DNA of 64,000 nucleotides from Flammeovirgaceae bacterium. GTDB taxonomy: Bacteria; Bacteroidota; Bacteroidia; Cytophagales; Cyclobacteriaceae. Position numbers and translations under genes: made by a program. Of this stretch, positions 24,378-53,155 are shown one piece after another (position 1 is the stretch's first letter; each line of letters opens with the position of its first letter). The notes beneath the pieces were generated by a model. That model did no database searches. It was not told the origin of the DNA and saw only the letters and a list, made by a program, of their open reading frames with translations. Where the stretch lies: the NCBI GenBank assembly GCA_002691385.1, contig NZHT01000091.1, forward strand, positions 4,843 through 68,842. Reading direction: 5' to 3'.

Positions 24378-24379
24378 TA

Positions 24380-25726: not shown

Positions 25727-25734
25727 ACAACTAT

Positions 25735-27362: not shown

Positions 27363-27926
27363 TTGAGATCATTTTTTAATAATAAAATTTTTTTTTTGGA
27401 GCTATCAGAAAAATTATTGGTAAGTCAGATCAAAGCTAGAAATCGAATAGCGTTTGAAATTATATTCAAAGAATATTATTTACAACTTGTAAGATTTGCT
27501 GAGGGAATGCTATTTGATCCAAAACAAGCCGATGACATAGTTCAAGATCTATTTTTAAACCTCTGGGAAAATGCTCAAAATTTGACTATAAAGAAATCTA
27601 TAAAAGGGTATCTCTACGCATCAACAAGAAATAGATGTTTAAATGAGATTCAGAAATTTCAAATACATGATAAAAATTTACTTCATTATGAAGGAATTCT
27701 AAATTCGGAAAATTTAGTATCTGACAATGATCTAAAAGAAGATTTGATAAAAAAAGTAATGGTTGTCTTAGAGTTACTGCCTAAAAAAATGAAGAAGATA
27801 GTCAAAATGAAGTACCTACAAAATAAAAAGCATCAAGAGATTTCGGAATCATTAAGCATTACAGAGAATACAGTCAATACTCAACTCACTCGAGCAAAGA
27901 AAAAATTAAGAGACTTCCTATATTAA
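27363..27926 (+). CDS. ECF-type RNA polymerase sigma-70 factor (Bacteroidota PUL-associated type)
   Basis: Region 2 (DDIVQDLFLNLWE, YLYASTRNRCLN) and region 4 (LPKKMKKIVKMKYLQNKKHQEISESLSITENTVNTQLTRAKKKL) are present. No ATG is available near the N-terminus, so the start is TTG at 27363 or TTG at 27396. Confidence 0.8.
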   Translation: MRSFFNNKIFFLELSEKLLVSQIKARNRIAFEIIFKEYYLQLVRFAEGMLFDPKQADDIVQDLFLNLWENAQNLTIKKSIKGYLYASTRNRCLNEIQKFQIHDKNLLHYEGILNSENLVSDNDLKEDLIKKVMVVLELLPKKMKKIVKMKYLQNKKHQEISESLSITENTVNTQLTRAKKKLRDFLY

Positions 27927-28039
27927 TATATCTGAGCTTAGCCGTATAAAATAAAACTCATACATGTCACAGATTATATCTAGTTGAATGTCTTAAATGT
28001 AAATTTCATATTTTAACTGAGATATCAAACATTGAAAAG

Positions 28040-29197: not shown

Positions 29198-29278
29198 ATA
29201 CAAAAAGTTATTGATATCAGACCATTATATACAACAATTCGATATGATTTTTATGCTATTAATCAGGAAAGTAATTAA

Positions 29279-35807: not shown

Positions 35808-35842
35808 TTTATATGCTTTTAACTAATGTAAACCCCAATGCT

Positions 35843-38800: not shown

Positions 38801-41800
38801 AATCAGATATCTAGAATAACTCTTGCCGGATCAAATGTGCAAATAAATTCATCAGGTCAAATTAAAGCAAAGGAAATTGCAGAATCAACTTTTACCAATG
38901 GTGGGGGTGACCACCTCTGGTCAAATGAGGCTAACTGGTCCTCAGGGATACCTAATGTGACAACTGCTAAAGTTACTTTGAATGATTCACTAATTATTGA
39001 TACAAATGTTGAAATAGCCCAGATTAAACTAGCTGGAGGTTATGGCACAGCTACGGTTTCATCAACTATTTCGGCAAAGACTCTAACTCTGAACGGGTCA
39101 TTAGTTACACAACCTATCCAAAACAATAGTGCAGATGTAGACCTTCATATTAATATGAAGGTTATTCTAAGCTCTATAGATGTCGAAACAATTCAGGCTA
39201 GTGGGGGGGGGACTTGTAGTATTACATTTGGCTCTAGCTCAGATTTAACCTTAGGTCAAAATACAAAATTTCTTGCTCAAAACAATCGAGTTATACGCAT
39301 GAATGGAGTTTTACAAGGCTCAAAACAATTTCAAGTTGGTGCCGCATCAACAGTTATTTTTGGTTCAACTTCTAATAATTCCGGTTTTACTGGAGGATTC
39401 AAAATGCTCGGAAATAACAGTACTTTAACGGTAAATACTGCTGCAAATGGTACATTTTTGAAGTCAGCTGCTAGCATGTCACCCGATGTAAATTCAACAG
39501 GACACACCATAACAATAAATACTGCTAACGTTCTTAAGGGTAATATTTCAATATTGGGAAATCCTGTTGCTCTAAATATCAATGCCAATCAATCTGCTGT
39601 TGGTAAAATAACCATGACAACTGGGACACTAAATTTAGCTTTGGGCTCTGATGTTTCCTCTTTAGCATTTGCAAATAATTATTCATCAGATTGGGGTACT
39701 GGAACACTTGCTATCACAGGTTTTAAGGATAACGTTGTTTCATTTGGTAATGATGCTGGGGGACTTACCTCAAGCCAGATTTCTAAAATAAATATCGGAG
39801 GCGAAACAGTTTTAATTAATGATGCTGGACAGCTATACAATGCAAATCCACCAACTATTACAAGCGTTACATCATCAAGTAATGACGGAAGTTATAAATC
39901 AGGAGATGTAGTTGCATTAAATATTGTTTTCAGTGAAGCTGTAAATGTTAAAGGTACCCCTCAATTAACATTGGAAACAGGATCAACTGATGCTATTGTT
40001 GATTATAGCAGTGGATCAGGCAATGATACTCTTACTTTTAATTATACTGTAGCAGACGGACACAATTCCTCCGATCTAGATTATGTATCAACAGGATCTC
40101 TAACCTTGGCTAACCCCAATCCAAGTGCACCAGTATATGCTGATACTGATGGAAATGCTAGAGCCATTGCAATAAATGGCAATTATGCATATATAACTGA
40201 CGGGAATGAAGGTTTAGCGGTTGTGGATATTTCGAATCCTACAATCCCGGGTGCGGCTGTTTACGAAAATACCAATGGATATGCTAGCGGAATAGCAATC
40301 AAAGGGGATTATGCTTATTTGGCTGATGCACAAGCTGGTTTAGCAATAATAGATATATCTACGGCAATTAATCCGGGAACTCCTAGTTATGTAAATACTA
40401 GTGGAACTTCTTATGGGGTAGCAATTAGTGGTGATTATGCTTATATTGCAGATAATAATTCAGGTTTAGCAATAATAGATATTTCAAATCCTGCCAATCC
40501 GGGAACTCCTGTTTATAAAGACACTGATGGATTTGCATTCGGCGTAGCTATAAGAGGAAATTATGCTTATGTTGCCGATTATGATAAAGGATTGGCAATT
40601 ATTGACATATCAAATCCTTCAAATCCTGGTAATCCTGTTTATGAGGATACTGAGGGATATGCAGTTGGAGTAGCCGTTAGTGGTAACTATGCTTATGTTG
40701 CTGATGCACAAGCTGGTTTAGCCATAATAGATATTTCAAATCCTGCCAATCCTGGAACACCCATATATAAAGATACTGATGACTATGCCTCGGGAGTAAC
40801 TATTAACCGAAATTTTGCTTTTGTTAGTGACAGAACTTCGGGTCTGGCATTGATTGATATTACTAATCCAACTAGTCCTGGTACGCCTCAATATGAAGAT
40901 ACTGGAAACGCATGGAACACTGCAATTAAGGGTGATTATGCATATGTGGCCGATAACACTTCAGGTCTTGCAATAATTAAAACTAATATTAACAGCATTT
41001 TAGATCCCTTGGGAAATGCAGCTAACCTTAATCTACCTAGTCCAGGATCAAGTGGATCTTTAGGAGCAAATAAAGCTATTGTTATAGACAATATTAAACC
41101 AACGGTTACTTCAGTAAATTCCCCAACTTCGGATGATTCCTATAGAGAAGGAGATGTAATATCAATTAATGTTGTATTCAGTGAAAAAGTTAATGTCACT
41201 GGTACTCCACAATTAACGTTGGAGACGGGCTCAAGTGATGCCGTAGTTGATTATAGTAGTGGGACAGGTACGGCTACTTTATCTTTTACTTATACGGTTG
41301 CAACTGAGCACAGCAGTACAGATCTTAGCTATGTTGGCACAGAATCTCTCATATTGTCTGGAAGTAGTACCATAAAGGATGTTGTAGGAAATATAGCAAT
41401 ATTAACTCTCCCTAGCCCAGGAGCCAATGGATCATTGTCAGCTAATAATGAATTAATTATAGATAATACTCGACCCACTATGACCATTACTGCAGCTGAA
41501 GGAGGTGATGGTTTTACCTCAAATGATTCTATTTTATCCCTGACATTTACAAGTAGCGAGGCAACTACTAATTTTACTCTAGAGGATATTACAGCAACTG
41601 GTGGATCTCTGAGTGACTTTTCAATTGTGAGTAGTACAATATATACTGCTACTTTTACAGCATCAGGCCTTGGTAATATTACAATTGATGTGGCTACTGA
41701 GACCTTTACAGATTCTCCAGGTAATTTTAATTTAGCTGCTGATCAGTTTAACTATAATTATGATCCATCAGTGCTTACGATGACAATCACTGCGGCTGAA

Positions 41801-42901
41801 GGAGTTGATGGTTTCACATCTGAAGATAGTACGCTTTCTCTGACCTTTAATTCAAATAAAGCAACTAATGACTTTACCGTAGAAGATATCACTGTTACTG
41901 GAGGAAATATCACTGATTTTATTTCAGTAAATGATTCGGTATATACAGCTACATTTACCCCAACAAGTGAAGGAGAAGTTACAGTAGATGTCGCTGCTGG
42001 GGCTTTTTCGGATGTTGCAGGGAATCTCAATCTTGCCGCCTTGCAGTTTAATTGGACCTATGATATAAATTATGCTCCTATAATGTCAGATACTTTATTT
42101 ATAATACCTGAAAATAGCGAAAATGGTACGTTTGTTGGTATCGTTGAGGCCACAGATGTGGATGGAGATCCTTTAACTTTTGAGATTGCAACAGGAAATC
42201 CTAATAATGCCTTTAGCATAGTCTCAAGTACGGGAGTTGTTACAGTTACTAATAAGGAAATGCTAGATTATGAAATAAATCCATCGTTTGCCATAAAATT
42301 AGGTGTTTCGGATGGATTTCTGACTGATTCAGCTACATTAACGATAAACTTGTCAGACGTTCTTGAAAATCAACCACCAATAGTTTTATCTGATACCTTC
42401 ACAATAGCAGAAAATAGTATAAATGGAACATTAATTGGTATAATCCAAGCATCAGATGCTGATGATGACTCTTTAAGCTATCTCATCCTAGCTGGTAATA
42501 CTGATGATGCTTTCAGAATAGATGAAAATGGGGAACTAATTGTAGTGAATGAATCTGTCCTTGATTATGAAATCAATTCTTCTTTTCATCTGACAGTGCA
42601 AGTATATGATGGCCAAATTTTTACCGTTGCAACAATAGTAGTGAGATTAACCGATATTGATGAGTCACTCCTTTCAGTCGAGAAAATGATGGAAATGGTT
42701 TATCCGAATCCATCAAGTGGAATCATAAATATTAAGATGAATCAATTCAAAAAAGCTGATTTATATGATTTGTCTGGGGAAAAAGTATTTAGCTCGAGAG
42801 ATCTTCGCATGGATATTAGTTCTGTTGACAAAGGTATTTATTTGATTACCCTTGAAAGACAAGACGGAACTACTGCAGTTATTAAAATTATTAAAGAATA
42901 A
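35843..42901 (+). CDS. Giant T9SS-secreted surface protein. It has four ~330-aa beta-helix-like modules, an Ig-like domain, seven LVIVD repeats, an Ig-like domain, two Big-like domains, two cadherin domains and a T9SS C-terminal domain.
   Basis: The ORF is open from 35813. The preferred start is the ATG at 35843 (MKKISLSLLFSLISIIAFSQ signal peptide). The domain order was read from the translation. The tail VYPNPSSGIINIKM...GIYLITLERQDGTTAVIKIIKE matches the type A T9SS sorting domain pattern. Confidence 0.85.
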   Translation: MKKISLSLLFSLISIIAFSQNNFTNGGGDHLWSNAANWSGSVPNSATAKVVIKNASVIVDGNYTVGQFKLPNANGGGVATVTVTNANNGVLTITGQGVTQPVQLNLNGQDLIFNCPVVFDATENETETFRFNSGNQSITFGAGHTLTVNDEITFTAVNLTSDLHFNGSTAGNGNLNFGVKTDVYFGSGYNGSNYGGTLRVGGGTGNNAVVLTSNVADNGTFLKSGGLIQVDQQGGTVNVNGANTLKGNITLTGANSLTLDVNKNQSAVGVITMGTGTLTLAVDAAVTSIAFADASGATWGNGSALAITGAADNEISFGSDANGLTNAQLAQVTLAGSTPAIDGSGQLAAPSIVVSTFNNAGGDNLWSNAGNWSAGIPTENTAKITVDANLIVDASKTIAQFIMASSAASTVTVTATNNATLTITGVGVTQPIQNNKSGGNIVFNLPVVFDSSEGATETLRMNSGNDQSVTFGASHSLTLNDELTVTGVNTNHDLNLNGNLLGAGNLKFGSKTQANFGSGFNGANYNGSLEIAGGSGNNAVTAISNVADDGTFLKAGGVINVTQTNGTLTINGANTLKGNIALSVANTLALNINKNQSAVGTITMGSGTLTLAVDAAVTSIAFADNSSASWGTGTLAITGATDNEVKFGTNASGVTSDQLAQITLAGSAVQINSSGQISPLSIVVSTFNNGGGDNLWSNAANWSAGIPTENTAKITVDSNLIVDASKTIAQFIMASSAASTVTVTATNNATLTITGVGVTQPIQNNKNGGNIVFNLPVVFDSSEGATETLRMNSGGDQSVTFGASHSLTLNDELTVTGVNKNHDLNLNGNLLGSGNLKFGVKTQANFGSGFSGANYNGSLEIAGGSSNNEVTVISNVADDGTFLKAGGAINVTQPAGTLTINGANTLKGNIALSGANSLALNVNKNQSAVGTITMGSGTLTLAVDAAVTSIAFADNSSADWGTGKLVITGAGENEVAFGTNANGLTSNQISRITLAGSNVQINSSGQIKAKEIAESTFTNGGGDHLWSNEANWSSGIPNVTTAKVTLNDSLIIDTNVEIAQIKLAGGYGTATVSSTISAKTLTLNGSLVTQPIQNNSADVDLHINMKVILSSIDVETIQASGGGTCSITFGSSSDLTLGQNTKFLAQNNRVIRMNGVLQGSKQFQVGAASTVIFGSTSNNSGFTGGFKMLGNNSTLTVNTAANGTFLKSAASMSPDVNSTGHTITINTANVLKGNISILGNPVALNINANQSAVGKITMTTGTLNLALGSDVSSLAFANNYSSDWGTGTLAITGFKDNVVSFGNDAGGLTSSQISKINIGGETVLINDAGQLYNANPPTITSVTSSSNDGSYKSGDVVALNIVFSEAVNVKGTPQLTLETGSTDAIVDYSSGSGNDTLTFNYTVADGHNSSDLDYVSTGSLTLANPNPSAPVYADTDGNARAIAINGNYAYITDGNEGLAVVDISNPTIPGAAVYENTNGYASGIAIKGDYAYLADAQAGLAIIDISTAINPGTPSYVNTSGTSYGVAISGDYAYIADNNSGLAIIDISNPANPGTPVYKDTDGFAFGVAIRGNYAYVADYDKGLAIIDISNPSNPGNPVYEDTEGYAVGVAVSGNYAYVADAQAGLAIIDISNPANPGTPIYKDTDDYASGVTINRNFAFVSDRTSGLALIDITNPTSPGTPQYEDTGNAWNTAIKGDYAYVADNTSGLAIIKTNINSILDPLGNAANLNLPSPGSSGSLGANKAIVIDNIKPTVTSVNSPTSDDSYREGDVISINVVFSEKVNVTGTPQLTLETGSSDAVVDYSSGTGTATLSFTYTVATEHSSTDLSYVGTESLILSGSSTIKDVVGNIAILTLPSPGANGSLSANNELIIDNTRPTMTITAAEGGDGFTSNDSILSLTFTSSEATTNFTLEDITATGGSLSDFSIVSSTIYTATFTASGLGNITIDVATETFTDSPGNFNLAADQFNYNYDPSVLTMTITAAEGVDGFTSEDSTLSLTFNSNKATNDFTVEDITVTGGNITDFISVNDSVYTATFTPTSEGEVTVDVAAGAFSDVAGNLNLAALQFNWTYDINYAPIMSDTLFIIPENSENGTFVGIVEATDVDGDPLTFEIATGNPNNAFSIVSSTGVVTVTNKEMLDYEINPSFAIKLGVSDGFLTDSATLTINLSDVLENQPPIVLSDTFTIAENSINGTLIGIIQASDADDDSLSYLILAGNTDDAFRIDENGELIVVNESVLDYEINSSFHLTVQVYDGQIFTVATIVVRLTDIDESLLSVEKMMEMVYPNPSSGIINIKMNQFKKADLYDLSGEKVFSSRDLRMDISSVDKGIYLITLERQDGTTAVIKIIKE
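35903..39850 (+). repeat. Four tandem coding modules (A1-A4), period ~990 bp (~330 aa)
   Basis: Each module opens with F(T/N)NGGGD.LWSN..NWS.G.P....AK(V/I). Each closes with DWG.GTLAITG..DNE..FG...(N/G)GLT..Q...I.L.G....IN..GQ. Module starts were read at about 35903, 36901, 37891 and 38881. Confidence 0.85.
36901..38880 (+). repeat. Nearly identical 990-bp tandem duplication (modules A2 and A3)
   Basis: Line-by-line comparison at offset 990. For example, 37021-37080 is identical to 38011-38070, and 36961-37020 versus 37951-38010 has 2 mismatches in 60. Other aligned 60-mers differ at only a few positions. Confidence 0.85.
40110..40990 (+). repeat. Seven LVIVD repeats (~43 aa / 129 bp each), a predicted beta-propeller
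   Basis: The pattern G(N/D)YAY(V/I/L)AD...GLA(I/V)IDISNP.NPG.P.Y.DT.G.A.GVA recurs seven times in the translation. Confidence 0.75.
42668..42898 (+). other. T9SS C-terminal sorting domain of giant protein 1
   Basis: The last ~77 aa read YPNPSSGIINIKMNQFKKADLYDLSGEKVF...ISSVDKGIYLITL...IKIIKE. Confidence 0.75.
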
Positions 42902-43088
42902 ATAACTAATACCGGAAAAATGTTTTGAAAATTATTTTATAGCAGAAATTAATTTCACAATTATAAAAGTCGAGCGCTATTTCTTATTAAAGCTTTGATA
43001 ATGCGTTAGACTATCATTAATTAACTTCTTTTTGCTTGTGAAATTATGCTCAACAAATTTTTCAGATTATTGATTTTTTTTAAAAACT

Positions 43089-46000
43089 ATGCCAAATATG
43101 GAATCCTTAGTGGTTAAAAAAATATTTTCATTTTTCAGAATACTTTTAATTCCAGTTCTCGGTTTTACTCAAAATACTACCTTTAATAACAATGGAGGTG
43201 ATAATTTATGGTCGAATAATGCTAATTGGTCTAATGGTATAGCAAATGAAGCTACTGCAAAAGTTACATTGAATGCCGATGCCATACTAGACTTAAGTGT
43301 GACGGTCGCACAAATAAAAATAGCTAGTAGTGGACCAAGTAATGTAACTCTTACCAATCGATCTGAAGCTACACTTACAATTACCGGAAATGGTGTAACT
43401 CAGCCTATACAGATTAATAAGAATACAACTAAGCTGACATTTAATTTACCAGTTGTTTTTGATTCGTCTGAAGATGCTCTTGAAACTATGCGTTTCAACA
43501 GTGGCAATATTATTATAACATTTGGAGCTGGGCATAGCTTGACTTTGATTGATAAACTATTAGTTACCGCTGTTAATAATAATAATACGTTAAATGTTGA
43601 TGGAAGTCTATTAGGTTCAGCAAACTTTAATTTTGGTGCCAAGTGTAATGTATTTTTTGGTTCGGAATCAAATAATTCATCCTACACAGGAAGTATAAGA
43701 CCAACGGCTGTTGATGTAGAAATCACAGCAAACACATCTGATAATGGCACTTTTATTAAATCTGGAGCTGCAATCGATATTCAAAATACAGGTGCTATAA
43801 TTACAATTAATGGATCGAATACATTAAAAGGTAACATCTTGGTTGGAGATAATAATCCCTCACTTAATATAAATGCAAATCAAAATAGTGTCGGTTTGAT
43901 CACAATTGGAGGTGGCACTTTAAACTTAGCTTTAGCTGATGATGTAAATTCGATGGCATTTGTCGATAACTCATTCTCTGATTGGGGTACTGGAACCCTT
44001 TCGATTACCGGTGCTGGAGATAATGAAGTTTCTTTTGGTACGGATGCTAATGGTATCACTTCGGCACAACTTTCTAAAATTACCCTTTCAGGTTCTAGTG
44101 TGGAAATAAATTCAGAGGGAAAATTATCCATCACTGGATCAAATGATGGTAGTCTAGTATCAGAATCAACTTTTACAAATGGTGGGGGAAATAATCTTTG
44201 GTCCAATACATCCAATTGGTCAGCCGGTATTCCTAATATTTTAACGGCTAAAGTTACTCTTGAAGCCTCAGTTATTGTTGATTCAAATGTAGAAATTGCA
44301 CAGATAAAACTTGGTGGTACTGCCAGCTCAAATGTGGTTGTATCCTCTTTGAATTCATCCATTCTTACCATTAACGGATCTGGAGTTACACAACCGATTC
44401 AAAATAATAAGGCAGATTTAGATTTAAATATAAATTTGGCTACAGTTCTTTCCTCATTAGAAGTCGAAATAATCCAAATAAGTGGTGGTGGTAGTTCTAG
44501 TATAACATTCGGTTCTAGCTCAGACTTGACCTTAAATTCAAATACTAAATTTATAGCACAAAATGATAGAAGATTTACCTTTGAAGGTATTCTTAAAGGT
44601 TCTGGTCAATTTATGCTCGGGACAGCATCAACGGCTAATTTTGGTTCGAATTCTGATAATACTCAACATACTGGAGGATTTAAAATGCTTGGAAACAATG
44701 GCAAAATTAATGTTAATACCCAAGCAGATGGGACATTTTTGACCCCGGGTGCCACCATAGCCCCTGATGCGAGTTCAATAGGGCATAATATTACCGTGAA
44801 TGCAGCAAATGTATTGAAAGGAAATATTTCAGTTTTAAGTAATCCATTGAATCTTAATATTAATGCGAATCAATCAGGTATTGGCATAATTACTATGACC
44901 AGTGGAATACTAAATCTGGTAGTTGCGCCTGATGTTACATTGGTAAGTTTTGTAGATAATTCATCTGCAGATTGGGGTGCAGGAACTCTTGCTATTACTG
45001 GTGCTGGAGAAAATGAAGTTGCGTTTGGAACAAATGCTAATGGATTAACATCTAGTCAAATTTCTCAGACGTCTATTTCAGGCTCGTTAGTTGAAATTAA
45101 CTCACAAGGACAATTATCTATATCAGAGGAAATATTAGATAAAAAAGGGATTGCAATGTCCTATAAAGAAGCTACCTGGCCGACAAGAATAAGTCGCTTG
45201 AAACCATTTTGGCACTACTCCTGGAATCGAGATATGAGGGAACAAATTCCAGATAGCGTGGAATTTGTTCCTATGTTTTGGGGTGCCGGAAGTGTTACTA
45301 ATGATGAAATATTAAGAATTAAAGGCCTTGCTGATGCCGGAAAGGTAAAATATGTTTTAGGATTCAATGAACCAGATCTTGAAAGTCAAGCCAATATGAC
45401 TATTGATGAGGCTATAGCTTTATGGCCTAAACTAGAAGAAATTGGGGTTCCTCTTGGAAGCCCTGTTCCGGCAGGACTTAATAATGGTTGGTTGGAGGAA
45501 TTTATGAAAAAAGCGAATGCCAATAATCTAAGAGTGGATTTTGTATGTATACATTTATACAGGGAAAACGATGCTCAGATTTTTCTGGATGCTGTAGATC
45601 AAACTTATCAAAAATATGGGAAACCTATTTGGATTACAGAAATGTCTGTTAAGGATAAACAAGCACAAACAGTAGCTGAAAACAGATTTTCAATGACTGA
45701 AGTTTTAGAGACAATGAAAATACTACTTCCTGAATTGTACAATCGGGAGTATCTTTCAAGATTTGCTTGGTTTACAGCTACTCGAGATTCACCTAATTAT
45801 CCAGGAAACTCATCATCAGTTCTTTATGATGAAAGTGATAACATAACAATTCTTGGCGAATATTATGCTGAATTCAAAGCTAACCCAGCATTCAAAGCGA
45901 AAGACATATCTGAGTCCACTTTTACAAATGCAGGGGGAGACAAGCTTTGGTCAAACTCAGCCAACTGGTCCGACGGAGTACCTAATGTTTCAAGTGCTAA

Positions 46001-49000
46001 GGTTACATTAAATGATTCAATAATAATTGATTCAGATGTTTCTATTAGTCAAATGAAAATGGCTAATGGCTTCGGCAGTGCGATGATATCCTCTTCAAAT
46101 TCATCTGCTCTAACGCTCAATGGAATAGGAGTAACCCAAATAATTCAAAATAATGGAACTGATGTAGATTTACAATTCAATCTAGATGTGGTTATATCTT
46201 CCTCAGATATAGAATCAATTCAGACAAATGGTAGTGGGAAATGTAGTATCACCTTTGGGCCCATTTCCGATTTGACATTAAAATCTATTACTAAATTCGC
46301 AGCTCAAGAAAATAAAAGTATAAATCTGAATGGAGTTTTACAGGGTGAGGGGCAATTTCAAATTGGGGCATCATCGAGTGTTAACTTTGGATCTACCTCT
46401 GATAATAAGTCTTTTACTGGAGGTTTTAAATTTCTAGGGAATAATAGTTTATTGGAAATAAATACAGCTAAAGACAGTACTTTTTTGAAGTCAGAAACTT
46501 TTATATCAACTGATGAAAATTCAACTGGACATAGTATAAATGTGAATTCTGCAAATGTATTGAAGGGTAATATTTCGGTCGATGGTAATAATTTGGTTCT
46601 CAATATTAATGCCAATCAAACGGGCTTAGGAACAATCAATATGGTAAGTGGAACTTTGGATTTGAATTTGGATTCAAGTATAACAGCTTTAATATTTGCT
46701 GATAATTCATCTGCGGATTGGGGTACCGGAACTATTGAAATAACGGGTGCGGGGGATAATGTAATAGGCTTTGGAACCAATTCTAATGGACTTTCAACAA
46801 AACAAATCTCACAGATAGAGATGGATAATCGAGCCGTAACTATTAATTCACTTGGCCAAATTTCGGCAAGTGGATCAGTTCAAGTAATTCAATCAACTTT
46901 CACCAATGCAGGAGGAGATAATCTTTGGTCTAATGCCGATAATTGGTCATCTGGAATACCTAATGTTCAAAATGCAAAAGTTACTTTAAATGAATCATTG
47001 ATATTGGATATGAATGTAACCATAGGTCAAATTAAAATGACTGCGGGATTTGGATCATTATCAATAACTACTAATAATGATGCTGTCCTTAAAATATCTG
47101 GTGATGGAGTAACCCAGCCTATTCAAAATAATGCTGGTAATTTAGAATTCGTTATAGATATTCCAGTTGTCATAGAGTCCATTGATTCACTTGCTGAAAT
47201 ATTTTTTCCTACGGTTCCTGGAGGAATAATAACCTTTGGATCAAATTCATCTTTGCAGCTAAATTCAGATATTACTGTGAACGCGAACAAAAATGCACAA
47301 AAATCGTTTAATTTTAATGGTACACTTTTCGGTTTAGGTAATTTTCAATTAGATGCAGGCACTGTTGTAAATTTTGGTGCAACCTCTGACAATTCAGCCT
47401 TTAATGGAAATTTTGTTTTATTAAAGGATAATGGAGAATTGGTGTCAAATATTACCGATAACGGAATATTTCTACCCACGGGAAGTTCCATTTTAGCAAA
47501 TGGTTCAGGGGGTAGTATCACTGTAAACGGAATTAATACTTTTAATGGGAATATCATTCTCTCTGCAAATGACATTGCGCTAAATATTAATGCAAACCAA
47601 TCCTCAATGGGTCTAATTTTAATTGGAGATTCGCTTAAGACTGACGATGTTAGTTTAGAATTGTCAATAATTAATTCCGTATCAGAGCTTCAATTCAAAG
47701 ATAATTCTATGTCTAATTGGGATAATTTATCCTTAAATATCATTGGTTTTAATGATAATGTAATTGCCTTTGGCACTGACTTTAATGGTCTTACAGTAGC
47801 ACAACTATCTAAAATTGATGTGGGGGGGCCGAGTGTGATAATTAATTCCTCAGGCCAACTAGAGGCAGAAGGAGAAATACCAATTAAATTATCAACCTTT
47901 AATAACGCTGGAGGGGATATGCTTTGGTCTAATCCGGTTAATTGGTCTTCTGGAATCCCAAATGATTCGAGCGCTAAAGTTATTTTAAATGCTTCAGTAA
48001 TAATAGATGTAGATGTCAACATTGCTCAAATGAAATTACAAGGTGGGTTTGGAGATGTGGAAGTCACGGGTAATGAATCCTCTAAATTAAATTTGACAGG
48101 TATTGGGGTAAATTCAATTATTCAAAACAATGGGAGCGATGTAGATCTTATGTTTGACTTGCCTATTGTCATTTCATCAACGGATGTAATTGAGAATATT
48201 CAGACAAATGCTGGAGGTATTTGTAGTATAACGTTTGGCTCGAATTCGAACATCAGTTTAAATTCAAATGTTAAATTCTCCGCCTCGAATGATAGAAAAA
48301 TAAATATGAATGGAATTCTAAATGGATCAGGACAATTTCAAATTGGAACATCTTCAACGATTAATTTTGGTTCATCATCAGACAATGATGCATTCTTGGG
48401 AGGATTTAAAATACTTGGTAATAATAGTCAATTGATAGTTAATACGGACTCAAGTGCTACTTTTTTAAAATCTGGGGTTGAAATAATGATTGATTCAGGT
48501 TCAAACGGGCACAGTGTAACTTTAAATGGTGAGAATGTTTTTTTTGGAGATCTTGCAATTTTAGATAGTCCTTTTAATTTAAATGTAAATGCCAATCAAT
48601 CAGGGATGGGGATAATTACAATGAGTAGTGGTATTTTAAGTTTAATTTTAAACGATTCTATTTCTACATTGGCATTTGCTAATAATTCATCTGCGGAATG
48701 GGGTGATGGAACATTATCGATTAGTGGTTTTGAGGATAATATAATTTCATTTGGAAATGATTTTAGTGGATTAAGTTTAGAACAAATAAAACAAATAAAT
48801 CACGAAGGGGAAGATGTTATAATTAATGAATTTGGGTATTTAATTAATGCAGATTATTCGGAAAATGATCACATTACAGGAATAAATAAAAAGAAAAAAG
48901 AGCAGATATTCTTCCCTAATCCAAACAGTTCTGTCTCTCTAAAATATTCATTTAAAAATTATATTAGGAGTAACGTTATTATATGTGATTTAGAGGGTAA

Positions 49001-49136
49001 AAGTTATATTCATTTTACATCTAATGAAAATTCCGGAGAAATTGATATTTCACAATTATCTCCTGGAGTTTATGTAATAATGGTTCAGGACAATAAGGGT
49101 GAAACCATAGATTCAAGATTGTTCATCAGAAGATGA
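43089..49136 (+). CDS. Giant T9SS-secreted multimodular protein. It has five ~325-aa beta-helix-like modules, an internal GH128-like catalytic domain and a T9SS C-terminal domain.
   Basis: 2015 aa with a signal peptide (IFSFFRILLIPVLGFTQ). Modules B1-B5 share the same start and end motifs as gene 1. The catalytic domain lies between B2 and B3. The tail FFPNPNSSVSLKYS...LSPGVYVIMVQDNKGETIDSRLFIRR is T9SS CTD-like. Confidence 0.85.
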   Translation: MPNMESLVVKKIFSFFRILLIPVLGFTQNTTFNNNGGDNLWSNNANWSNGIANEATAKVTLNADAILDLSVTVAQIKIASSGPSNVTLTNRSEATLTITGNGVTQPIQINKNTTKLTFNLPVVFDSSEDALETMRFNSGNIIITFGAGHSLTLIDKLLVTAVNNNNTLNVDGSLLGSANFNFGAKCNVFFGSESNNSSYTGSIRPTAVDVEITANTSDNGTFIKSGAAIDIQNTGAIITINGSNTLKGNILVGDNNPSLNINANQNSVGLITIGGGTLNLALADDVNSMAFVDNSFSDWGTGTLSITGAGDNEVSFGTDANGITSAQLSKITLSGSSVEINSEGKLSITGSNDGSLVSESTFTNGGGNNLWSNTSNWSAGIPNILTAKVTLEASVIVDSNVEIAQIKLGGTASSNVVVSSLNSSILTINGSGVTQPIQNNKADLDLNINLATVLSSLEVEIIQISGGGSSSITFGSSSDLTLNSNTKFIAQNDRRFTFEGILKGSGQFMLGTASTANFGSNSDNTQHTGGFKMLGNNGKINVNTQADGTFLTPGATIAPDASSIGHNITVNAANVLKGNISVLSNPLNLNINANQSGIGIITMTSGILNLVVAPDVTLVSFVDNSSADWGAGTLAITGAGENEVAFGTNANGLTSSQISQTSISGSLVEINSQGQLSISEEILDKKGIAMSYKEATWPTRISRLKPFWHYSWNRDMREQIPDSVEFVPMFWGAGSVTNDEILRIKGLADAGKVKYVLGFNEPDLESQANMTIDEAIALWPKLEEIGVPLGSPVPAGLNNGWLEEFMKKANANNLRVDFVCIHLYRENDAQIFLDAVDQTYQKYGKPIWITEMSVKDKQAQTVAENRFSMTEVLETMKILLPELYNREYLSRFAWFTATRDSPNYPGNSSSVLYDESDNITILGEYYAEFKANPAFKAKDISESTFTNAGGDKLWSNSANWSDGVPNVSSAKVTLNDSIIIDSDVSISQMKMANGFGSAMISSSNSSALTLNGIGVTQIIQNNGTDVDLQFNLDVVISSSDIESIQTNGSGKCSITFGPISDLTLKSITKFAAQENKSINLNGVLQGEGQFQIGASSSVNFGSTSDNKSFTGGFKFLGNNSLLEINTAKDSTFLKSETFISTDENSTGHSINVNSANVLKGNISVDGNNLVLNINANQTGLGTINMVSGTLDLNLDSSITALIFADNSSADWGTGTIEITGAGDNVIGFGTNSNGLSTKQISQIEMDNRAVTINSLGQISASGSVQVIQSTFTNAGGDNLWSNADNWSSGIPNVQNAKVTLNESLILDMNVTIGQIKMTAGFGSLSITTNNDAVLKISGDGVTQPIQNNAGNLEFVIDIPVVIESIDSLAEIFFPTVPGGIITFGSNSSLQLNSDITVNANKNAQKSFNFNGTLFGLGNFQLDAGTVVNFGATSDNSAFNGNFVLLKDNGELVSNITDNGIFLPTGSSILANGSGGSITVNGINTFNGNIILSANDIALNINANQSSMGLILIGDSLKTDDVSLELSIINSVSELQFKDNSMSNWDNLSLNIIGFNDNVIAFGTDFNGLTVAQLSKIDVGGPSVIINSSGQLEAEGEIPIKLSTFNNAGGDMLWSNPVNWSSGIPNDSSAKVILNASVIIDVDVNIAQMKLQGGFGDVEVTGNESSKLNLTGIGVNSIIQNNGSDVDLMFDLPIVISSTDVIENIQTNAGGICSITFGSNSNISLNSNVKFSASNDRKINMNGILNGSGQFQIGTSSTINFGSSSDNDAFLGGFKILGNNSQLIVNTDSSATFLKSGVEIMIDSGSNGHSVTLNGENVFFGDLAILDSPFNLNVNANQSGMGIITMSSGILSLILNDSISTLAFANNSSAEWGDGTLSISGFEDNIISFGNDFSGLSLEQIKQINHEGEDVIINEFGYLINADYSENDHITGINKKKKEQIFFPNPNSSVSLKYSFKNYIRSNVIICDLEGKSYIHFTSNENSGEIDISQLSPGVYVIMVQDNKGETIDSRLFIRR
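43170..45130 (+). repeat. Modules B1 and B2 of the ~325-aa repeat family
   Basis: B1 starts TFNNNGGDNLWSNNANWSNGIANEATAKVTL (about 43170). B2 starts ESTFTNGGGNNLWSNTSNWSAGIPNILTAKVTL (about 44163) and ends ...LTSSQISQTSISGSLVEINSQGQLSIS. Confidence 0.8.
45131..45900 (+). other. Embedded GH128-like catalytic domain, paralogue of the product of 34437-35807
   Basis: The translation reads KGIAMSYKEATWPTRISRLKPFWHYSWNRDM...GFNEPDLESQ...FVCIHLY...GKPIWITEMSV...ILGEYY. It aligns by eye along its full length with the lipoprotein enzyme, with roughly two-thirds of residues identical. Both putative catalytic Glu motifs are retained. Confidence 0.75.
45911..48840 (+). repeat. Modules B3, B4 and B5 of the ~325-aa repeat family
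   Basis: Module starts were read at about 45911 (ESTFTNAGGDKLWSNSANWSDGVPN), 46892 (STFTNAGGDNLWSNADNWSSGIPN) and 47891 (STFNNAGGDMLWSNPVNWSSGIPN). Confidence 0.8.
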
Positions 49137-49186: not shown

Positions 49187-51490
49187 ATGCTAAAATTTAT
49201 TATTCGTATTGCTAAAGTGCTCTTCTTTATCTCTGCTTTTTGTATTCCAAAACTCAATGGTCAAATATATAAAAACCCGAATACCAATATAGAAGACCGG
49301 ATAACAGATTTAATGGATAAGATGACACTCGAAGAGAAGATCGGGCAAATGTGTCAATTTGTAGCACCTGCACACATAGAAAAAACGAAGAGTCGACTCA
49401 AAGGTGAAGAACTTATTTATAATGATCAATGGGGTACTTATCCGGGTTTAAATGCTGTAAAGCTTAACGAAAAAATAAAAAAGGGAGAAATTGGATCTTT
49501 TTTACATGTTAAAAATGTAGTTGAGGCAAATGAACTTCAAAAAATAGCTCAAAAATCACGTCTAGGAATTCCATTATTAATAGGTATTGATGCAATTCAT
49601 GGGCATGGAATGGTCAAAGGGACCACAATTTTCCCAACTCAAATAGGCTTATCAAGTACCTGGGATGACCAACTAATTTATGAGGTTGCCAAAGCTACTG
49701 CAAAAGAAGTTAGAGCTACAGGCATGCATTGGACTTTTTCTCCAAATGTAGAAGTTGCCAGAGATCCTCGATGGGGAAGAGTTGGTGAGACTTTTGGTGA
49801 AGATCCTATGCTTGTTGGGAGAATGGGCCAAGCTTTCACAAAAGGATATCAAGGAAATTTTAGTGATGAAAATGTTATTGCATGTGCCAAACACTTTATT
49901 GCAGGTGGAGAACCATATAATGGAACAAATGCATCACCAATTGATGTATCAGAAAGACAATTGAGAGAGATTTGGTTGCCCCCATTTAAAAAGCAAATTG
50001 AAGCAGGTGTATTTACTTTTATGGCTTCCCATAATGAGATAAATGGTGTGCCTGCGCACGCCAATAAGTTCCTTCTTAATGATATTTTGAAAAATGAATG
50101 GAAATTTGATGGATTTGTAGTTTCGGATTGGATGGATATTGAGAGAATCCATAAACTTCATAAGCTTACTTCAGATAAAAAAGAATCAGTATTAAAAAGT
50201 GTTAATTCAGGTATGGGTATGCACATGCACGGACCTGGTTTTATGAAGCCCTTATTGGAACTCGTTGAGGAAGGATTAGTACCAGTAAAAAAAATTGACG
50301 ATGCTTGTATGTCAATTTTAAAAGCCAAATTTCTACTTGGGCTTTTTGAAAATCCATTTGTTGATCAATCAAAAACTAAATCCATATTATTCAATGAAGG
50401 CCATAAAGAATTAGCTTTAAATGCTGCTAGAAAATCGATAGTACTACTAAAAAATAATGGTATTTTACCTTTAAATAATCCTAAAAAAATATTGATTACA
50501 GGCCCAAACGCCAATAATCATCGAATATTGGGAGATTGGACATTTAAGCAACCTGATGCTAATGTTCAAACGGTTTATCAAGGTTTTCAAAAGGTATTTG
50601 ATGAGTCTAATGTTGATTTTATCAATTCTGGTGAAAGCTTACTATATCCTGATGATACAAAACTTGAAGGGACAATATCAAAGGCTGAAGGTTATGATGC
50701 CATTATCGTTGTATTGGGATCAAACTCGCTTAGATTCCAACGGAAAGAAAAAACTTGTGGAGAGAATGTGGACCGATCCCAGATAAACTTGTTGGGTAAT
50801 CAACTTCGTCTTGTTCAAGAATTATATAAAATCAATAATAATATAGTTGTTGTGATGGTCAATGGTCGACCATTGTCTGAGCCATGGATAACGGAAAATA
50901 TTCCAGGAATAATTGAAGCTTGGGAGCCAGGTTCATTTGCAGGGCAAGCAATTGCAGAAATTGTCAAGGGAGAGATAAATCCTTCAGGAAAACTTACAAT
51001 TACATTCCCTCATCATTCAGGACAAATACCTATGGTATATAATCAAAAACCATCATCATTTTTCAGAAAATATATTGATGCTCCATCTGCGCCAATGTGG
51101 CATTTTGGTTATGGATTGAGTTATTCAGAATTCCAATATTCAAACCCTTACATCACAAAGCTGGCAGATGGCTTTATGATTGAGATTGAGATTGAAAATA
51201 AAAGTTCGATTGAAGGTGATGAAATTACACAATTATACATTCGTGATGAAGTTTCATCTGTAACTAGACCACTTAAAGAGCTTATTGACTATAAAAGAAT
51301 TACTTTGAAAGGTGGTGAAAAAAAAATAATTCCTTTTGAATTTTCTATAGAGGATCTTGCTTTTTATAATGTAGATATGCAAAAGGTTGTAGAATCGGGT
51401 GATTTTTTAGTGTCCATTGGTAGCTCATCTCGAGAGGAAGATTTGATTCAAATTGAATTCAATATTGACAAAAATTTCAACTATGATTAA
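49187..51490 (+). CDS. Glycoside hydrolase family 3 (BglX-type beta-glucosidase/exo-glycosidase)
   Basis: 767 aa with a signal peptide. Motifs are GIDAIHGH, RDPRWGR..E.FGEDP, GFVVSDW (nucleophile Asp context), and a C-terminal FnIII-like domain (ITQLYIRDEVSSVTRPLKEL). Confidence 0.9.
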   Translation: MLKFIIRIAKVLFFISAFCIPKLNGQIYKNPNTNIEDRITDLMDKMTLEEKIGQMCQFVAPAHIEKTKSRLKGEELIYNDQWGTYPGLNAVKLNEKIKKGEIGSFLHVKNVVEANELQKIAQKSRLGIPLLIGIDAIHGHGMVKGTTIFPTQIGLSSTWDDQLIYEVAKATAKEVRATGMHWTFSPNVEVARDPRWGRVGETFGEDPMLVGRMGQAFTKGYQGNFSDENVIACAKHFIAGGEPYNGTNASPIDVSERQLREIWLPPFKKQIEAGVFTFMASHNEINGVPAHANKFLLNDILKNEWKFDGFVVSDWMDIERIHKLHKLTSDKKESVLKSVNSGMGMHMHGPGFMKPLLELVEEGLVPVKKIDDACMSILKAKFLLGLFENPFVDQSKTKSILFNEGHKELALNAARKSIVLLKNNGILPLNNPKKILITGPNANNHRILGDWTFKQPDANVQTVYQGFQKVFDESNVDFINSGESLLYPDDTKLEGTISKAEGYDAIIVVLGSNSLRFQRKEKTCGENVDRSQINLLGNQLRLVQELYKINNNIVVVMVNGRPLSEPWITENIPGIIEAWEPGSFAGQAIAEIVKGEINPSGKLTITFPHHSGQIPMVYNQKPSSFFRKYIDAPSAPMWHFGYGLSYSEFQYSNPYITKLADGFMIEIEIENKSSIEGDEITQLYIRDEVSSVTRPLKELIDYKRITLKGGEKKIIPFEFSIEDLAFYNVDMQKVVESGDFLVSIGSSSREEDLIQIEFNIDKNFNYD

Positions 51491-53099: not shown

Positions 53100-53155
53100 A
53101 CTTGATTAGCTGTAAAATAAAATCTAAAGTATTCTTTAAAATAATTATTCAGATT

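What the first reader, a model, noticed from the sequence alone, without database searches (positions are those of the whole stretch)
45131..45900. GH128-like catalytic domain spliced between repeat modules of giant protein 2, paralogous to a free lipoprotein enzyme 10 kb upstream
Seen in sequence: residues of about 680-935 of the 43089-49136 product read KGIAMSYKEATWPTRISRLKPFWHYSWNRDM...GFNEPDLESQ...FVCIHLY...PIWITEMSV...ILGEYY. This region is collinear with the catalytic part of the 34437-35807 lipoprotein (KGIGMSSKQITWSTRVGRLKPFWYYAWNRDL...GFNEPDLESQ...FVCLHLY...PIWITEMSV...LGEYY). By eye about two-thirds of residues are identical. Both putative catalytic Glu motifs (NEP and TEM) are kept.

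In the giant protein the domain is inserted exactly at a module boundary, after ...INSQGQLSIS and before ESTFTNAGGDKLW. The free copy carries a CBM4/9-like tail instead.

Established knowledge: Glyco_hydro_cc/GH128 enzymes are clan GH-A retaining enzymes, and the characterised members cleave beta-1,3-glucans.

Inference: the locus deploys the same catalytic core in two formats. One is outer-membrane lipid-anchored with a CBM. The other is mounted mid-way along a T9SS-secreted stalk. A catalytic domain nested inside a repeat array, rather than at one end, is unusual. It suggests domain insertion by recombination at module junctions.
Basis: partly seen in the sequence, partly recalled or inferred. 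Interest (0 to 1): 0.75.

Follow-up and report, generated by a model that had tools for sequence, protein, structure and literature searches.

The report
Glucanase domain embedded in surface-fibre protein
A marine bacterium's sugar-harvesting gene cluster carries the same GH128 glycan-cutting domain twice, once as an ordinary lipoprotein enzyme and once built into the middle of a 2015-residue secreted protein made of repeated beta-helix-like modules; the layout is real and rare, but it is a variant of known multi-domain enzymes.

Summary
ORF 43089-49136 encodes a signal peptide, five ~320-aa modules and a T9SS C-terminal sorting domain. A complete GH128/PF11790 domain (aa 680-933, nt 45126-45887) sits exactly between modules 2 and 3. 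It is 70% identical, without gaps, to the catalytic part of the GH128-CBM4_9 lipoprotein at 34437-35807.

Both catalytic glutamates (E761, E851), the H-x-Y motif and every family-invariant residue are kept. The AlphaFold model superposes on AmGH128_I (TM 0.80/0.86).

The nested copy is an old duplicate: 71% nucleotide identity and saturated synonymous sites. It is the most conserved part of the giant protein (dN/dS 0.10), and its clade is sister to the syntenic lipoprotein clade.

The layout recurs in three independent metagenome assemblies, so it is not an artefact. No other lineage has it among about 350 retrieved relatives and 35 related loci.

The modules are an unannotated domain family. 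The model is very confident (pLDDT 97) and all-beta, with only weak matches, all to beta-helix proteins. The family is common in T9SS proteins encoded next to GH128 loci in Marinoscillum-like Cytophagales. Other members carry Calx-beta-like or TSP3 inserts at module junctions.

Verdict: a genuine, rare architectural variant of a known enzyme family. Substrate and surface display remain inferred.

The parts
43089..49136 (+). Giant protein 2 (2015 aa): signal peptide, modules M1-M2, GH128, modules M3-M5, T9SS C-terminal domain
   Evidence: ORF, translation, Pfam. Orthologues of 82-100% identity occur in three other assemblies.
43173..44144 (+). Module M1 (aa 29-352), subtype A
   Evidence: Self-alignment, HMM envelopes, module tree.
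44163..45125 (+). Module M2 (aa 359-679), subtype B; predicted all-beta, probably beta-helix
   Evidence: AlphaFold2 model with pLDDT 97.3 and pTM 0.93. Foldseek top hits are all beta-helix proteins, but all have E > 0.1.
45126..45887 (+). Nested GH128 catalytic domain (aa 680-933); the Pfam envelope is aa 701-926
   Evidence: PF11790 E 6e-47. 70% identity to the lipoprotein. 6UAQ sequence match E 2e-32. Model pLDDT 92.4, TM 0.80/0.86 to AmGH128_I.
45369..45371 (+). Codon of E761, the predicted acid/base (FNEPD motif)
   Evidence: Aligns with E102 of AmGH128_I (alignment, mutant names). Invariant in 50 homologues. Position.
45639..45641 (+). Codon of E851, the predicted nucleophile (ITEMS motif)
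   Evidence: Aligns with the residue changed in the E199A and E199Q crystal structures 6UAS and 6UFL. Invariant.
45888..45911 (+). 8-residue linker AFKAKDIS between GH128 and M3
45912..46874 (+). Module M3 (aa 942-1262), subtype B
46890..47876 (+). Module M4 (aa 1268-1596), subtype A-like
47889..48863 (+). Module M5 (aa 1601-1925), subtype B
48912..49127 (+). T9SS type A C-terminal sorting domain (aa 1942-2013)
   Evidence: PF18962 35.5 bits against a cut-off of 27. TIGR04183 35.4 bits against 23.
34437..35807 (+). Paralogous GH128-CBM4_9 lipoprotein (456 aa). GH128 part is nt 34560-35321; CBM4_9 is nt 35373-35744.
   Evidence: Pfam, BLASTP. Cys20 is followed by GEE. Relatives have canonical lipoboxes.
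35813..42901 (+). Giant protein 1 (2362 aa): four modules of the same family, then LVIVD repeats, Big_12, cadherin and the T9SS C-terminal domain
27363..34437 (+). Regulatory and uptake genes of the locus: ECF sigma factor (27363-27926), FecR anti-sigma (28040-29197), SusC with an STN domain (29279-32695), SusD (32692-34437)
49187..53099 (+). Downstream GH3 (49187-51490) and sulfatase (51453-53099)
   Evidence: The same gene order occurs in locus L002.

Best explanation
The region is part of a SusC/SusD polysaccharide-utilisation locus controlled by an ECF sigma/anti-sigma pair. The organism is an uncultured marine member of the Cytophagales close to Marinoscillum.

The locus encodes two paralogous GH128 catalytic domains. 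They are retaining clan GH-A (beta/alpha)8 enzymes, closest to subgroup I endo-beta-1,3-glucanases.
- One copy is a lipoprotein with a C-terminal CBM4_9. This is the common format in Bacteroidota.
- The other copy is the catalytic segment alone, without lipoprotein leader or CBM. It lies in the linker between modules 2 and 3 of a 2015-aa T9SS substrate built from five ~320-aa, probably beta-helical, modules.

Shown: the nested copy arose by an old duplication of the locus's own lipoprotein-type GH128. It keeps the complete catalytic machinery and evolves under the strongest purifying selection in the protein.

Inferred:
- It is an active glycanase.
- Because the two ends of a TIM barrel lie on the face opposite the active site, the domain can hang sideways from the junction without breaking the module chain.
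- The T9SS exports the protein and probably tethers it to the cell surface. This would present an endo-glycanase on an extended fibre that attacks polymeric or particulate glycan away from the membrane.
- The lipoprotein copy would work next to SusC/SusD, and GH3 and the sulfatases would finish the oligosaccharides.
For: Architecture.

Paralogy and origin:
- 70% amino-acid and 71% nucleotide identity with sharp edges.
- In the NJ tree the nested clade is sister to the syntenic lipoprotein clade, inside the GH128+CBM4_9 radiation.
- Both window copies share derived residues against 85-94% family consensus: TEMS instead of TEFA, plus T875 and F892.

Catalytic competence:
- NEPD, HxY, TE and W are invariant in 50 homologues and present in the nested copy.
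- E761 and E851 align with E102 and E199 of AmGH128_I.
- The model has pLDDT 92.4, with TM 0.80/0.86 and rmsd 2.5 A to 6UAQ.

Selection: between the window and L001 the GH128 part is 91% identical with dN/dS 0.10. The modules are 79-83% identical with dN/dS 0.12-0.17.

Reality: the same layout occurs in contigs from other assemblies at 82-83% identity.

Locus context. Module proteins sit within 10 kb of the GH128 lipoprotein gene in several Marinoscillum genomes.

Secretion: the T9SS C-terminal domain.

Module fold.
Against: No activity, localisation or expression data exist.

Five sulfatases and a SASA-type esterase surround the locus. Identity to any characterised GH128 is only about 30%, so the substrate may not be plain beta-1,3-glucan.

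The beta-helix assignment of the modules rests on Foldseek hits with E > 0.1 and TM <= 0.37.

T9SS type A C-terminal-domain proteins can be released rather than anchored.

The closely related locus L002 (lipoprotein 94% identical to that of L001) lacks giant protein 2 altogether. The nested enzyme is therefore dispensable for the locus.

No direct trace of the insertion mechanism was found.
Confidence: 0.72

Rival explanations
1. The nested GH128 is a real, folded domain but acts as a non-catalytic glycan-binding module on an adhesin-like fibre. This would resemble the GH128 subgroup VII oligosaccharide-binding proteins.
For: GH128 subgroup VII members are binding proteins (descriptions of 6UBC and 6UBD). 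The nested copy lacks the CBM4_9 of its paralogue. The giant proteins look adhesin-like, with cadherin, Big_12 and LVIVD domains in giant 1.
Against: Both catalytic Glu, the H-x-Y motif and all 33 invariant family positions are retained. The closest structure is the active subgroup I enzyme, not subgroup VII (TM 0.80 against 0.70). dN/dS of 0.10 shows no relaxation.
Confidence: 0.08
2. Both GH128 copies are active, but on a glycan other than unsubstituted beta-1,3-glucan, for example a sulfated and/or acetylated algal beta-glycan. The architecture reading stays the same and the substrate assignment changes.
For: The locus has five sulfatase genes and a SASA acetylesterase beside GH128 and GH3. 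A GH128 locus with four sulfatases and no known substrate has been noted in bloom-associated Polaribacter (PMC7242417). Identity to characterised enzymes is about 30%. The residues next to the nucleophile differ from the family consensus (TEMS against TEFA).
Against: All characterised GH128 enzymes act on beta-1,3-glucans (titles; PMC10956234). The -1 subsite residues are conserved.
Confidence: 0.4
3. The nested layout is an assembly chimera, or a read-through of separate genes (a module gene, a GH128 gene, a second module gene).
For: The window is of metagenomic type, and repeated 990-nt modules are prone to mis-assembly. In L015 a GH128 gene and a module gene are adjacent but separate.
Against: The identical domain order occurs in an uninterrupted frame in the window, in a 100%-identical cluster P0001, and in P0002 and P0003 at 82-83% identity from different assemblies. 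The GH128 segment has no leader of its own, and homology starts exactly after the lipoprotein's N-terminal linker. The nested copies form their own clade, 69-70% identical to the lipoprotein copies, so they are not mis-joined lipoprotein genes.
Confidence: 0.02

Closest known systems
GH128 subgroup I endo-beta-1,3-glucanase AmGH128_I (PDB 6UAQ)
   Same: Same family and fold: PF11790, sequence match E 2e-32, TM 0.80/0.86. Acid/base E102 and nucleophile E199 are aligned and conserved, and the H-x-Y motif is conserved.
   Different: Only about 30% identity. AmGH128_I is a single-domain actinobacterial enzyme. Here the domain is embedded in a 2015-aa T9SS protein within a sulfatase-rich locus.
Bacteroidota GH128-CBM4_9 lipoproteins (~445 aa) and GH128-CTD proteins (~350 aa)
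   Same: The nested domain is phylogenetically inside this radiation and is sister to the locus's own GH128-CBM4_9 lipoprotein.
   Different: Those have the catalytic domain at the N-terminus, followed by a CBM or a T9SS C-terminal domain. The nested form has lost leader and CBM and is flanked on both sides by ~320-aa modules.
CBM6E of Saccharophagus degradans (GH128 subgroup II + CBM6; PDB 8J3X; PMC10956234)
   Same: A multi-modular bacterial GH128 with the same catalytic residues: the E168/E272 equivalents and H245/Y247.
   Different: It is a two-domain secreted enzyme of a different subgroup, with no repeat scaffold.
Cellulosomal scaffoldin CipA of Clostridium thermocellum, with a CBM3 nested between cohesin repeats (from my own knowledge, not tested here)
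   Same: A non-repeat functional domain sits at an internal junction of a repeat array in a cell-surface polysaccharide-degrading apparatus.
   Different: CipA's repeats are cohesins that recruit enzymes non-covalently, and its insert is a binding module. Here the repeats are unrelated, probably beta-helix, modules with no cohesin or dockerin hits, and the insert is the enzyme itself, covalently built in.
Large PATR / GH128 / ricin-lectin proteins (P0079-P0081, 1736-1783 aa)
   Same: GH128 lies in a mid-chain position of a very large secreted protein that contains beta-helix-type passenger repeats.
   Different: The repeat family is unrelated (PF12951). GH128 is only 27-29% identical and is flanked by lectin domains rather than lying between two copies of one repeat. 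There is no T9SS C-terminal domain hit.

Membership tests
GH128 / Pfam PF11790 (Glyco_hydro_cc) | Sequence match to the family profile above the curated threshold | tested here: met
   Nested copy 160.6 bits and lipoprotein 165.6 bits against a cut-off of 21.
GH128 / Pfam PF11790 (Glyco_hydro_cc) | (beta/alpha)8 fold superposable on solved GH128 structures | tested here: met
   AlphaFold2 model pLDDT 92.4. The top 27 Foldseek hits are all GH128; the best is 6UAQ with TM 0.80/0.86 and rmsd 2.5 A.
GH128 / Pfam PF11790 (Glyco_hydro_cc) | Catalytic acid/base Glu in the N-E-P motif (E102 of AmGH128_I; E168 of CBM6E) | tested here: met
   E761 in FNEPD aligns with chain residue 96, which is E102 by author numbering. 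It is invariant in 50 sequences. In the lipoprotein the residue is E123.
GH128 / Pfam PF11790 (Glyco_hydro_cc) | Catalytic nucleophile Glu (E199 of AmGH128_I; E272 of CBM6E) | tested here: met
   E851 in ITEMS aligns with the residue replaced in 6UAS (E199A) and 6UFL (E199Q). It is invariant.
GH128 / Pfam PF11790 (Glyco_hydro_cc) | H-x-Y motif (the -1 subsite His and the nucleophile-activating Tyr; H245/Y247 of CBM6E) | tested here: met
   H822 and Y824 (IHLY) are invariant columns H144 and Y146. Their roles are taken from PMC10956234.
GH128 / Pfam PF11790 (Glyco_hydro_cc) | Hydrolysis of beta-1,3-glucan with retention | not testable with these tools
   Needs an enzyme assay. The sulfatase-rich context leaves the substrate open.
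GH128 subgroup I (Santos et al. 2020 classification) | Clusters with subgroup I rather than II-VII | tested here: inconclusive
   Among solved structures the best match is subgroup I: 115.7 bits against at most 71 bits for other subgroups, and TM 0.80 against at most 0.77. The published similarity network and CAZy subfamily set were not available, and identity is only about 30%.
T9SS type A cargo | C-terminal sorting domain (PF18962 / TIGR04183) | tested here: met
   aa 1942-2013: 35.5 bits against 27 and 35.4 bits against 23.
T9SS type A cargo | N-terminal Sec signal peptide | tested here: inconclusive
   A basic-then-hydrophobic N-terminus (MPNMESLVVKKIFSFFRILLIPVLGFTQ) is visible. No signal-peptide predictor was available.
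T9SS type A cargo | T9SS machinery (PorK/L/M/N, SprA, PorU/V) in the same genome | not testable with these tools
   Only a 64-kb window is available.
Bacteroidota polysaccharide-utilisation locus | Adjacent SusC-like TonB-dependent transporter and SusD-like genes with CAZyme genes | tested here: met
   SusC (Plug, CarboxypepD_reg, STN) at 29279-32695 and SusD at 32692-34437. GH128, GH3 and sulfatases lie on the same strand. The order is syntenic in L001 and L002.
Surface lipoprotein (SPII) for the free GH128 copy | Lipobox Cys after a hydrophobic leader, with acidic residues after the Cys | tested here: inconclusive
   The window copy reads ...LGFFIKC|GEE, with an atypical K at position -1. 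Relatives read FSGC|LDE (L001) and LFGC|EED (L008). No predictor was run.
Right-handed beta-helix (pectin-lyase-like) fold for the ~320-aa modules | Significant structural match to beta-helix proteins | tested here: inconclusive
   The model is very confident (pLDDT 97.3) and all-beta. Nearly all of the 50 listed Foldseek hits are beta-helix proteins (Ag43, tailspikes, pectate lyases), but E >= 0.18 and TM <= 0.37. There are no Pfam or NCBIfam hits.
Cellulosome-type scaffoldin | Cohesin or dockerin modules | tested here: not met
   No cohesin or dockerin family was detected in giant proteins 1 and 2 or in single modules. The comparison is functional analogy only.

The most novel reading that the evidence does not exclude
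The ~320-aa modules define an undescribed family of T9SS-exported beta-solenoid 'scaffold fibres' that are integral parts of marine Cytophagales/Bacteroidota glycan-utilisation loci. Their inter-module junctions would act as docking points where passenger domains are built in covalently: GH128 here, and Calx-beta-like and TSP3 domains in relatives. That would make them a covalent, cohesin-free counterpart of a cellulosome scaffold. The nested GH128 would be the first case of such a fibre carrying its own depolymerase, functionally convergent with phage tailspike depolymerases.
Probability: 0.3. Interest if true: 0.65.

Novelty: new variant of a known kind. Interest (0 to 1): 0.42.

Why it matters
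GH128 loci rich in sulfatases are seen in bloom-associated marine Bacteroidota, but their substrate and mode of action are unknown (PMC7242417).

This locus offers a natural paired experiment. The same catalytic core occurs once as a lipoprotein with a CBM and once mounted inside a long secreted repeat protein. Comparing the two could show what display on a fibre contributes to attacking particulate or gel-forming algal glycans.

The work also brings out a widespread, unannotated ~320-aa module family in T9SS cargo. The family is genetically linked to these loci and tolerates domain insertions at its junctions, which makes it a possible scaffold for enzyme-display engineering.

The enzyme family, the locus logic and the secretion route are all known. 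The advance is architectural rather than conceptual.

Tried and rejected
1. Pfam and NCBIfam scans of single modules at E up to 10 gave only noise (DUF4971, FecR, Herpes_U34). The modules therefore cannot be filed under any curated family.

2. Foldseek of the module model against the PDB gave no significant hit. I report 'probably beta-helix' only as a tendency.

3. I searched for further nested examples in five ways:
- a whole-protein word-indexed search;
- an exhaustive HMMER search of 1.84 billion cluster representatives with M2-GH128-M3;
- domain HMM screening of all 346 retrieved proteins;
- a scan of GTDB species genomes;
- a scan of JGI/TARA metagenomes.
Only P0001-P0003 were found.

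4. Two apparent nested candidates were false:
- L008 and L026 (match starting at query residue 47) are ordinary lipoproteins.
- In L015 tblastn joined a GH128-CBM gene to a separate downstream module gene across a stop codon.

5. Representative hits whose alignments ran upstream of GH128 (P0243, P0301) turned out to have fn3 or unrelated N-terminal regions, not modules.

6. I looked for long near-identical DNA between the two giant genes, or at the insertion edges, that could mark recent recombination. None exists apart from 91% identity between giant 1 modules 2 and 3.

7. The full text of the GH128 subgroup paper (Santos et al. 2020) was not in the library, so subsite residues of AmGH128_I could not be mapped.

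I did not repeat it, since Bacteroidota promoters are not covered by the tool.
Full report
**1. What is there**

ORF 43089-49136 (+) encodes a 2015-aa protein. Motif search and self-alignment resolve five tandem modules of about 320 aa:
- M1 29-352
- M2 359-679
- M3 942-1262
- M4 1268-1596
- M5 1601-1925

The modules are 39-56% identical to one another and are joined by linkers of 4-7 residues. A profile built from the window's modules reproduces these envelopes.

The only long interruption is aa 680-941, between M2 and M3. At DNA level the module start-to-start spacing is 978-999 nt everywhere except M2 to M3, where it is 1749 nt.

Pfam places Glyco_hydro_cc (PF11790, the GH128 catalytic core) at aa 701-926 (E 6e-47, 160.6 bits, cut-off 21). 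It places a T9SS sorting domain at aa 1942-2013, and TIGR04183 agrees.

The 456-aa product of 34437-35807 has PF11790 at 66-288 and CBM_4_9 at 313-436.

**2. The two copies**

BLASTP gives 177/253 identities (70%), no gaps, E 2e-141.

Homology starts at EE(I/V)(L/V)DKKGI. In the lipoprotein this is just after its leader and N-terminal linker. Homology ends at EYY..(F/Y)K.N, before the linker that leads to the CBM.

At nucleotide level identity is 71% over 762 nt. It falls to background within one 30-nt window on each side, at 45126 and about 45885. Differences by codon position are 60/34/129, and pS is 0.75, which means synonymous sites are saturated. The duplication is therefore old, and both copies have stayed under purifying selection.

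**3. Is it a real GH128, and is it catalytically competent?**

- The best solved relatives by sequence are the AmGH128_I entries (6UAQ, E 2e-32, 115.7 bits). Other subgroups score 71 bits or less.
- An AlphaFold2 model of the nested domain (50-sequence alignment, pLDDT 92.4, pTM 0.90) hits only GH128 structures in the first 27 Foldseek ranks. The best is 6UAQ, with TM 0.80/0.86 and rmsd 2.5 A.
- In the HMMER alignments, the Glu of ITEMS pairs with the residue that reads A in 6UAS and Q in 6UFL. One search names these entries as the E199A and E199Q mutants.
- Counting along the chain gives an offset of +6 between chain index and author numbering. The Glu of FNEPD therefore pairs with E102, the residue mutated in 6UAT.
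- In giant-protein numbering these are E761 and E851.
- H822-x-Y824 corresponds to H245/Y247 of CBM6E. There the Tyr is described as the nucleophile-activating residue (PMC10956234).
- In a 50-sequence family alignment, N, E, P, D, H, Y, T, E and W at these positions are invariant columns, and the nested copy shares all 33 invariant columns.

Membership of GH128 is met on every sequence and structure criterion I could test. Activity and subgroup remain open.

**4. Origin**

A neighbour-joining tree of the catalytic region puts the nested copies (window, P0002, P0003, fragment P0082) in one clade. That clade is sister to the lipoprotein copies of the syntenic loci (window, L001, L002). Both clades lie inside the large Bacteroidota GH128+CBM4_9 radiation.

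Both window copies share substitutions at positions that are 85-94% conserved in the rest of the family: TEMS for TEFA, T875 for F, F892 for Y. This is independent support for a common ancestor specific to this lineage.

The most economical reading is that the catalytic segment of the locus's own lipoprotein-type gene was duplicated and fixed in the M2/M3 linker. The mechanism itself is not visible. There are no flanking repeats and no residual leader or CBM sequence.

**5. Not an artefact, but rare**

The same uninterrupted domain order occurs in a 100%-identical cluster (P0001). It also occurs in two clusters at 82-83% identity from other assemblies (P0002 on a 27-kb contig, P0003).

Between the window and L001, the GH128 part is the most conserved region of the protein:

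| Region | Amino-acid identity | dN/dS |
|---|---|---|
| GH128 | 91% | 0.10 |
| Modules | 79-83% | 0.12-0.17 |
| T9SS C-terminal domain | 78% | 0.34 |

(All values.)

Further searches found no other lineage with modules plus GH128:
- An exhaustive HMMER search of 1.84 billion cluster representatives with M2-GH128-M3, followed by HMM screening of all 346 retrieved proteins.
- Twelve loci from GTDB species genomes.
- Twenty-three loci from JGI/TARA metagenomes.

Two apparent candidates dissolved on inspection. L008 and L026 are lipoproteins. In L015 the GH128-CBM gene is followed by a separate module gene.

One caveat applies. The representative library collapses proteins at 50% identity, so a nested protein could be hidden behind a module-only representative.

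**6. The modules**

They match no Pfam or NCBIfam model.

An AlphaFold2 model of M2 from a 38-sequence alignment is very confident (pLDDT 97.3, pTM 0.93). It consists almost entirely of short beta-strands.

Foldseek finds nothing significant in the PDB (E >= 0.18, TM <= 0.37). Nearly all listed hits are right-handed beta-helix proteins, such as antigen 43, TibA, phage tailspikes and pectate lyases. I therefore call the modules probable beta-solenoids of a new family.

The family is common. About 75 further protein clusters carry 1-5 tandem modules directly after the signal peptide. These are followed by cadherin-like, TSP3, LTD/Calx-beta or other domains and a T9SS C-terminal domain.

Giant protein 1 of the window (35813-42901) has four modules, the last 62% identical to M2. 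They are followed by LVIVD repeats, Big_12, cadherin and the C-terminal domain.

Module number varies among orthologues: 3, 4 or 5 in L001, the window and L002.

A module tree shows two subtypes. Giant 1 reads A-A-A-B-payload. Giant 2 reads A-B-[GH128]-B-A-B.

Other family members have non-module domains at junctions:
- A ~115-aa Calx-beta-like segment in P0016, P0033, P0040 and the Marinoscillum proteins of L004 and L011. In P0040, L004 and L011 it lies after module 2, as GH128 does here; in P0016 and P0033 it lies after module 1.
- TSP3 repeats in P0049.
- Cupredoxin-like N-terminal domains in P0005, P0026 and P0027.

Junction insertion is therefore a property of the family. A catalytic insert is the exception.

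**7. Context**

The genes form a SusC/SusD locus:
- ECF sigma factor (27363) and FecR anti-sigma (28040)
- SusC with an STN domain (29279) and SusD (32692)
- GH128-CBM4_9 lipoprotein, giant 1, giant 2
- GH3 (49187) and a sulfatase (51453)

Four more sulfatases and a SASA-type esterase flank the locus.

L001 has the same order. L002 has the same order but a single giant protein and no giant 2, although its lipoprotein is 94% identical to that of L001. Giant 2 is therefore an accessory gene that has been gained or lost recently.

The nearest genomes are uncultured Marinoscillum sp. and Flammeovirgaceae MAGs and SAGs. SusD is 78% identical to that of SAG AH-324-A18. Marinoscillum belongs to Cytophagales, Reichenbachiellaceae. 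In several of these genomes a module protein is encoded within 10 kb of the GH128 lipoprotein gene.

A GH128 locus with four sulfatases and no known substrate has been described for bloom-associated Polaribacter 3-b (PMC7242417).

**8. How it most likely works**

Shown: two paralogous, intact GH128 catalytic domains in one locus; one with a lipoprotein-type leader and a CBM; the other inside a T9SS cargo made of repeated modules; strong constraint on the nested domain.

From established knowledge: GH128 enzymes are retaining clan GH-A beta-1,3-glucanases. T9SS type A C-terminal domains direct export across the outer membrane and, in many cases, covalent attachment to the cell surface. The N- and C-termini of (beta/alpha)8 barrels lie on the face opposite the catalytic face.

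Inference:
- The barrel is tolerated at a linker because its termini are close together. It protrudes sideways with the active site free.
- The module chain acts as an extended spacer or adhesive fibre that carries the endo-glycanase away from the membrane.
- The lipoprotein copy trims fragments beside SusC/SusD.
- GH3 and the sulfatases complete degradation.

The sulfatases and the esterase mean the natural substrate may be a decorated beta-glycan rather than plain laminarin. I give that about 40%.

**9. Comparison and novelty**

The enzyme is a member of a known family, and the locus and secretion route are standard.

The nested position between copies of one repeat is rare but has analogies:
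- The CBM3 inside the cohesin array of CipA (from my own knowledge).
- GH128 in the middle of large PATR/lectin proteins (P0079-P0081).
- Tandem GH128 proteins (P0210, P0211, P0251).

I rate it a new variant of a known kind, with moderate interest. The more interesting by-product is the unannotated module family and its apparent tolerance of junction inserts.

Noticed in passing
window 35813-42901 and 43089-49136; P0004-P0078: The ~320-aa repeat module has no Pfam or NCBIfam model, yet it occurs as 1-5 tandem copies in about 75 clusters of T9SS proteins. Its AlphaFold2 model is very confident (pLDDT 97.3) and all-beta, with no significant PDB neighbour. It is a candidate new domain family with two subtypes (A and B).
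   Followed up: partly
P0016/P0033 aa 358-477; P0040 aa 696-810; L004 11883-16781 (aa 699-813); P0049 aa 536-580: Other members of the module family carry non-module inserts exactly at module junctions. These are a ~115-aa Calx-beta-like segment (after module 2 in P0040 and the Marinoscillum proteins, after module 1 in P0016/P0033) and thrombospondin type-3 calcium-binding repeats. P0005, P0026 and P0027 start with a cupredoxin-like domain; JGI annotates P0027 as 'plastocyanin'.
   Followed up: partly
L002 10001-16456 versus L001 and the window: A closely related locus (lipoprotein 94% identical to that of L001) has only one giant protein, with five modules, no LVIVD region and no nested GH128. 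Module number in the giant 1 orthologues is 3, 4 or 5. The arrays expand and contract quickly, and giant 2 is an accessory gene.
   Followed up: partly
window 35813-42901: After its four modules, giant protein 1 combines seven LVIVD repeats (probably a beta-propeller), two Big_12 domains, cadherin domains and a T9SS C-terminal domain. Residues 1342-1600 and several other stretches have no annotation.
   Followed up: no
window 20597-27102 and 51453-54577: Five sulfatase genes (22569, 24368, 25735 on the minus strand, 51453, 53156 on the minus strand) and a 687-aa protein with a SASA acetylesterase domain flank a locus whose only endo-acting CAZyme family is GH128. This hints at a sulfated or acetylated substrate. 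The ORFs at 20597-22660 and 22569-24377 overlap by 92 nt, so one start codon is probably mis-set.
   Followed up: no
window 34437-34500: The window's GH128 lipoprotein has an atypical lipobox (F-I-K-C followed by GEE). The L001 orthologue and the L008 relative have canonical F-S-G-C and L-F-G-C followed by acidic residues.
   Followed up: partly
P0210, P0211, P0249, P0251 (804-1119 aa); P0079-P0081 (1736-1783 aa): GH128 occurs elsewhere as two or three tandem catalytic domains in one protein. It also occurs mid-chain in very large proteins with F5/8-type-C, ricin-lectin and PATR (autotransporter-type beta-helix) repeats.
   Followed up: partly
window 6350-10295: A trehalose gene pair is present: a GH15/trehalase-like protein (6350-8131, + strand) and a fused trehalose-6-phosphate synthase/phosphatase (GT20 + Trehalose_PPase, 8118-10295, - strand). 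It is unrelated to the locus under study.
   Followed up: no
window 54634-55845 (-): A 402-aa ORF next to the sulfatases has no Pfam match at E <= 0.001.
   Followed up: no
window 42902-43088: A 187-nt AT-rich spacer separates giant 1 from giant 2, whereas the upstream genes are separated by 5 nt or less or overlap. Giant 2 may have its own promoter, which would fit its being an accessory addition.
   Followed up: no
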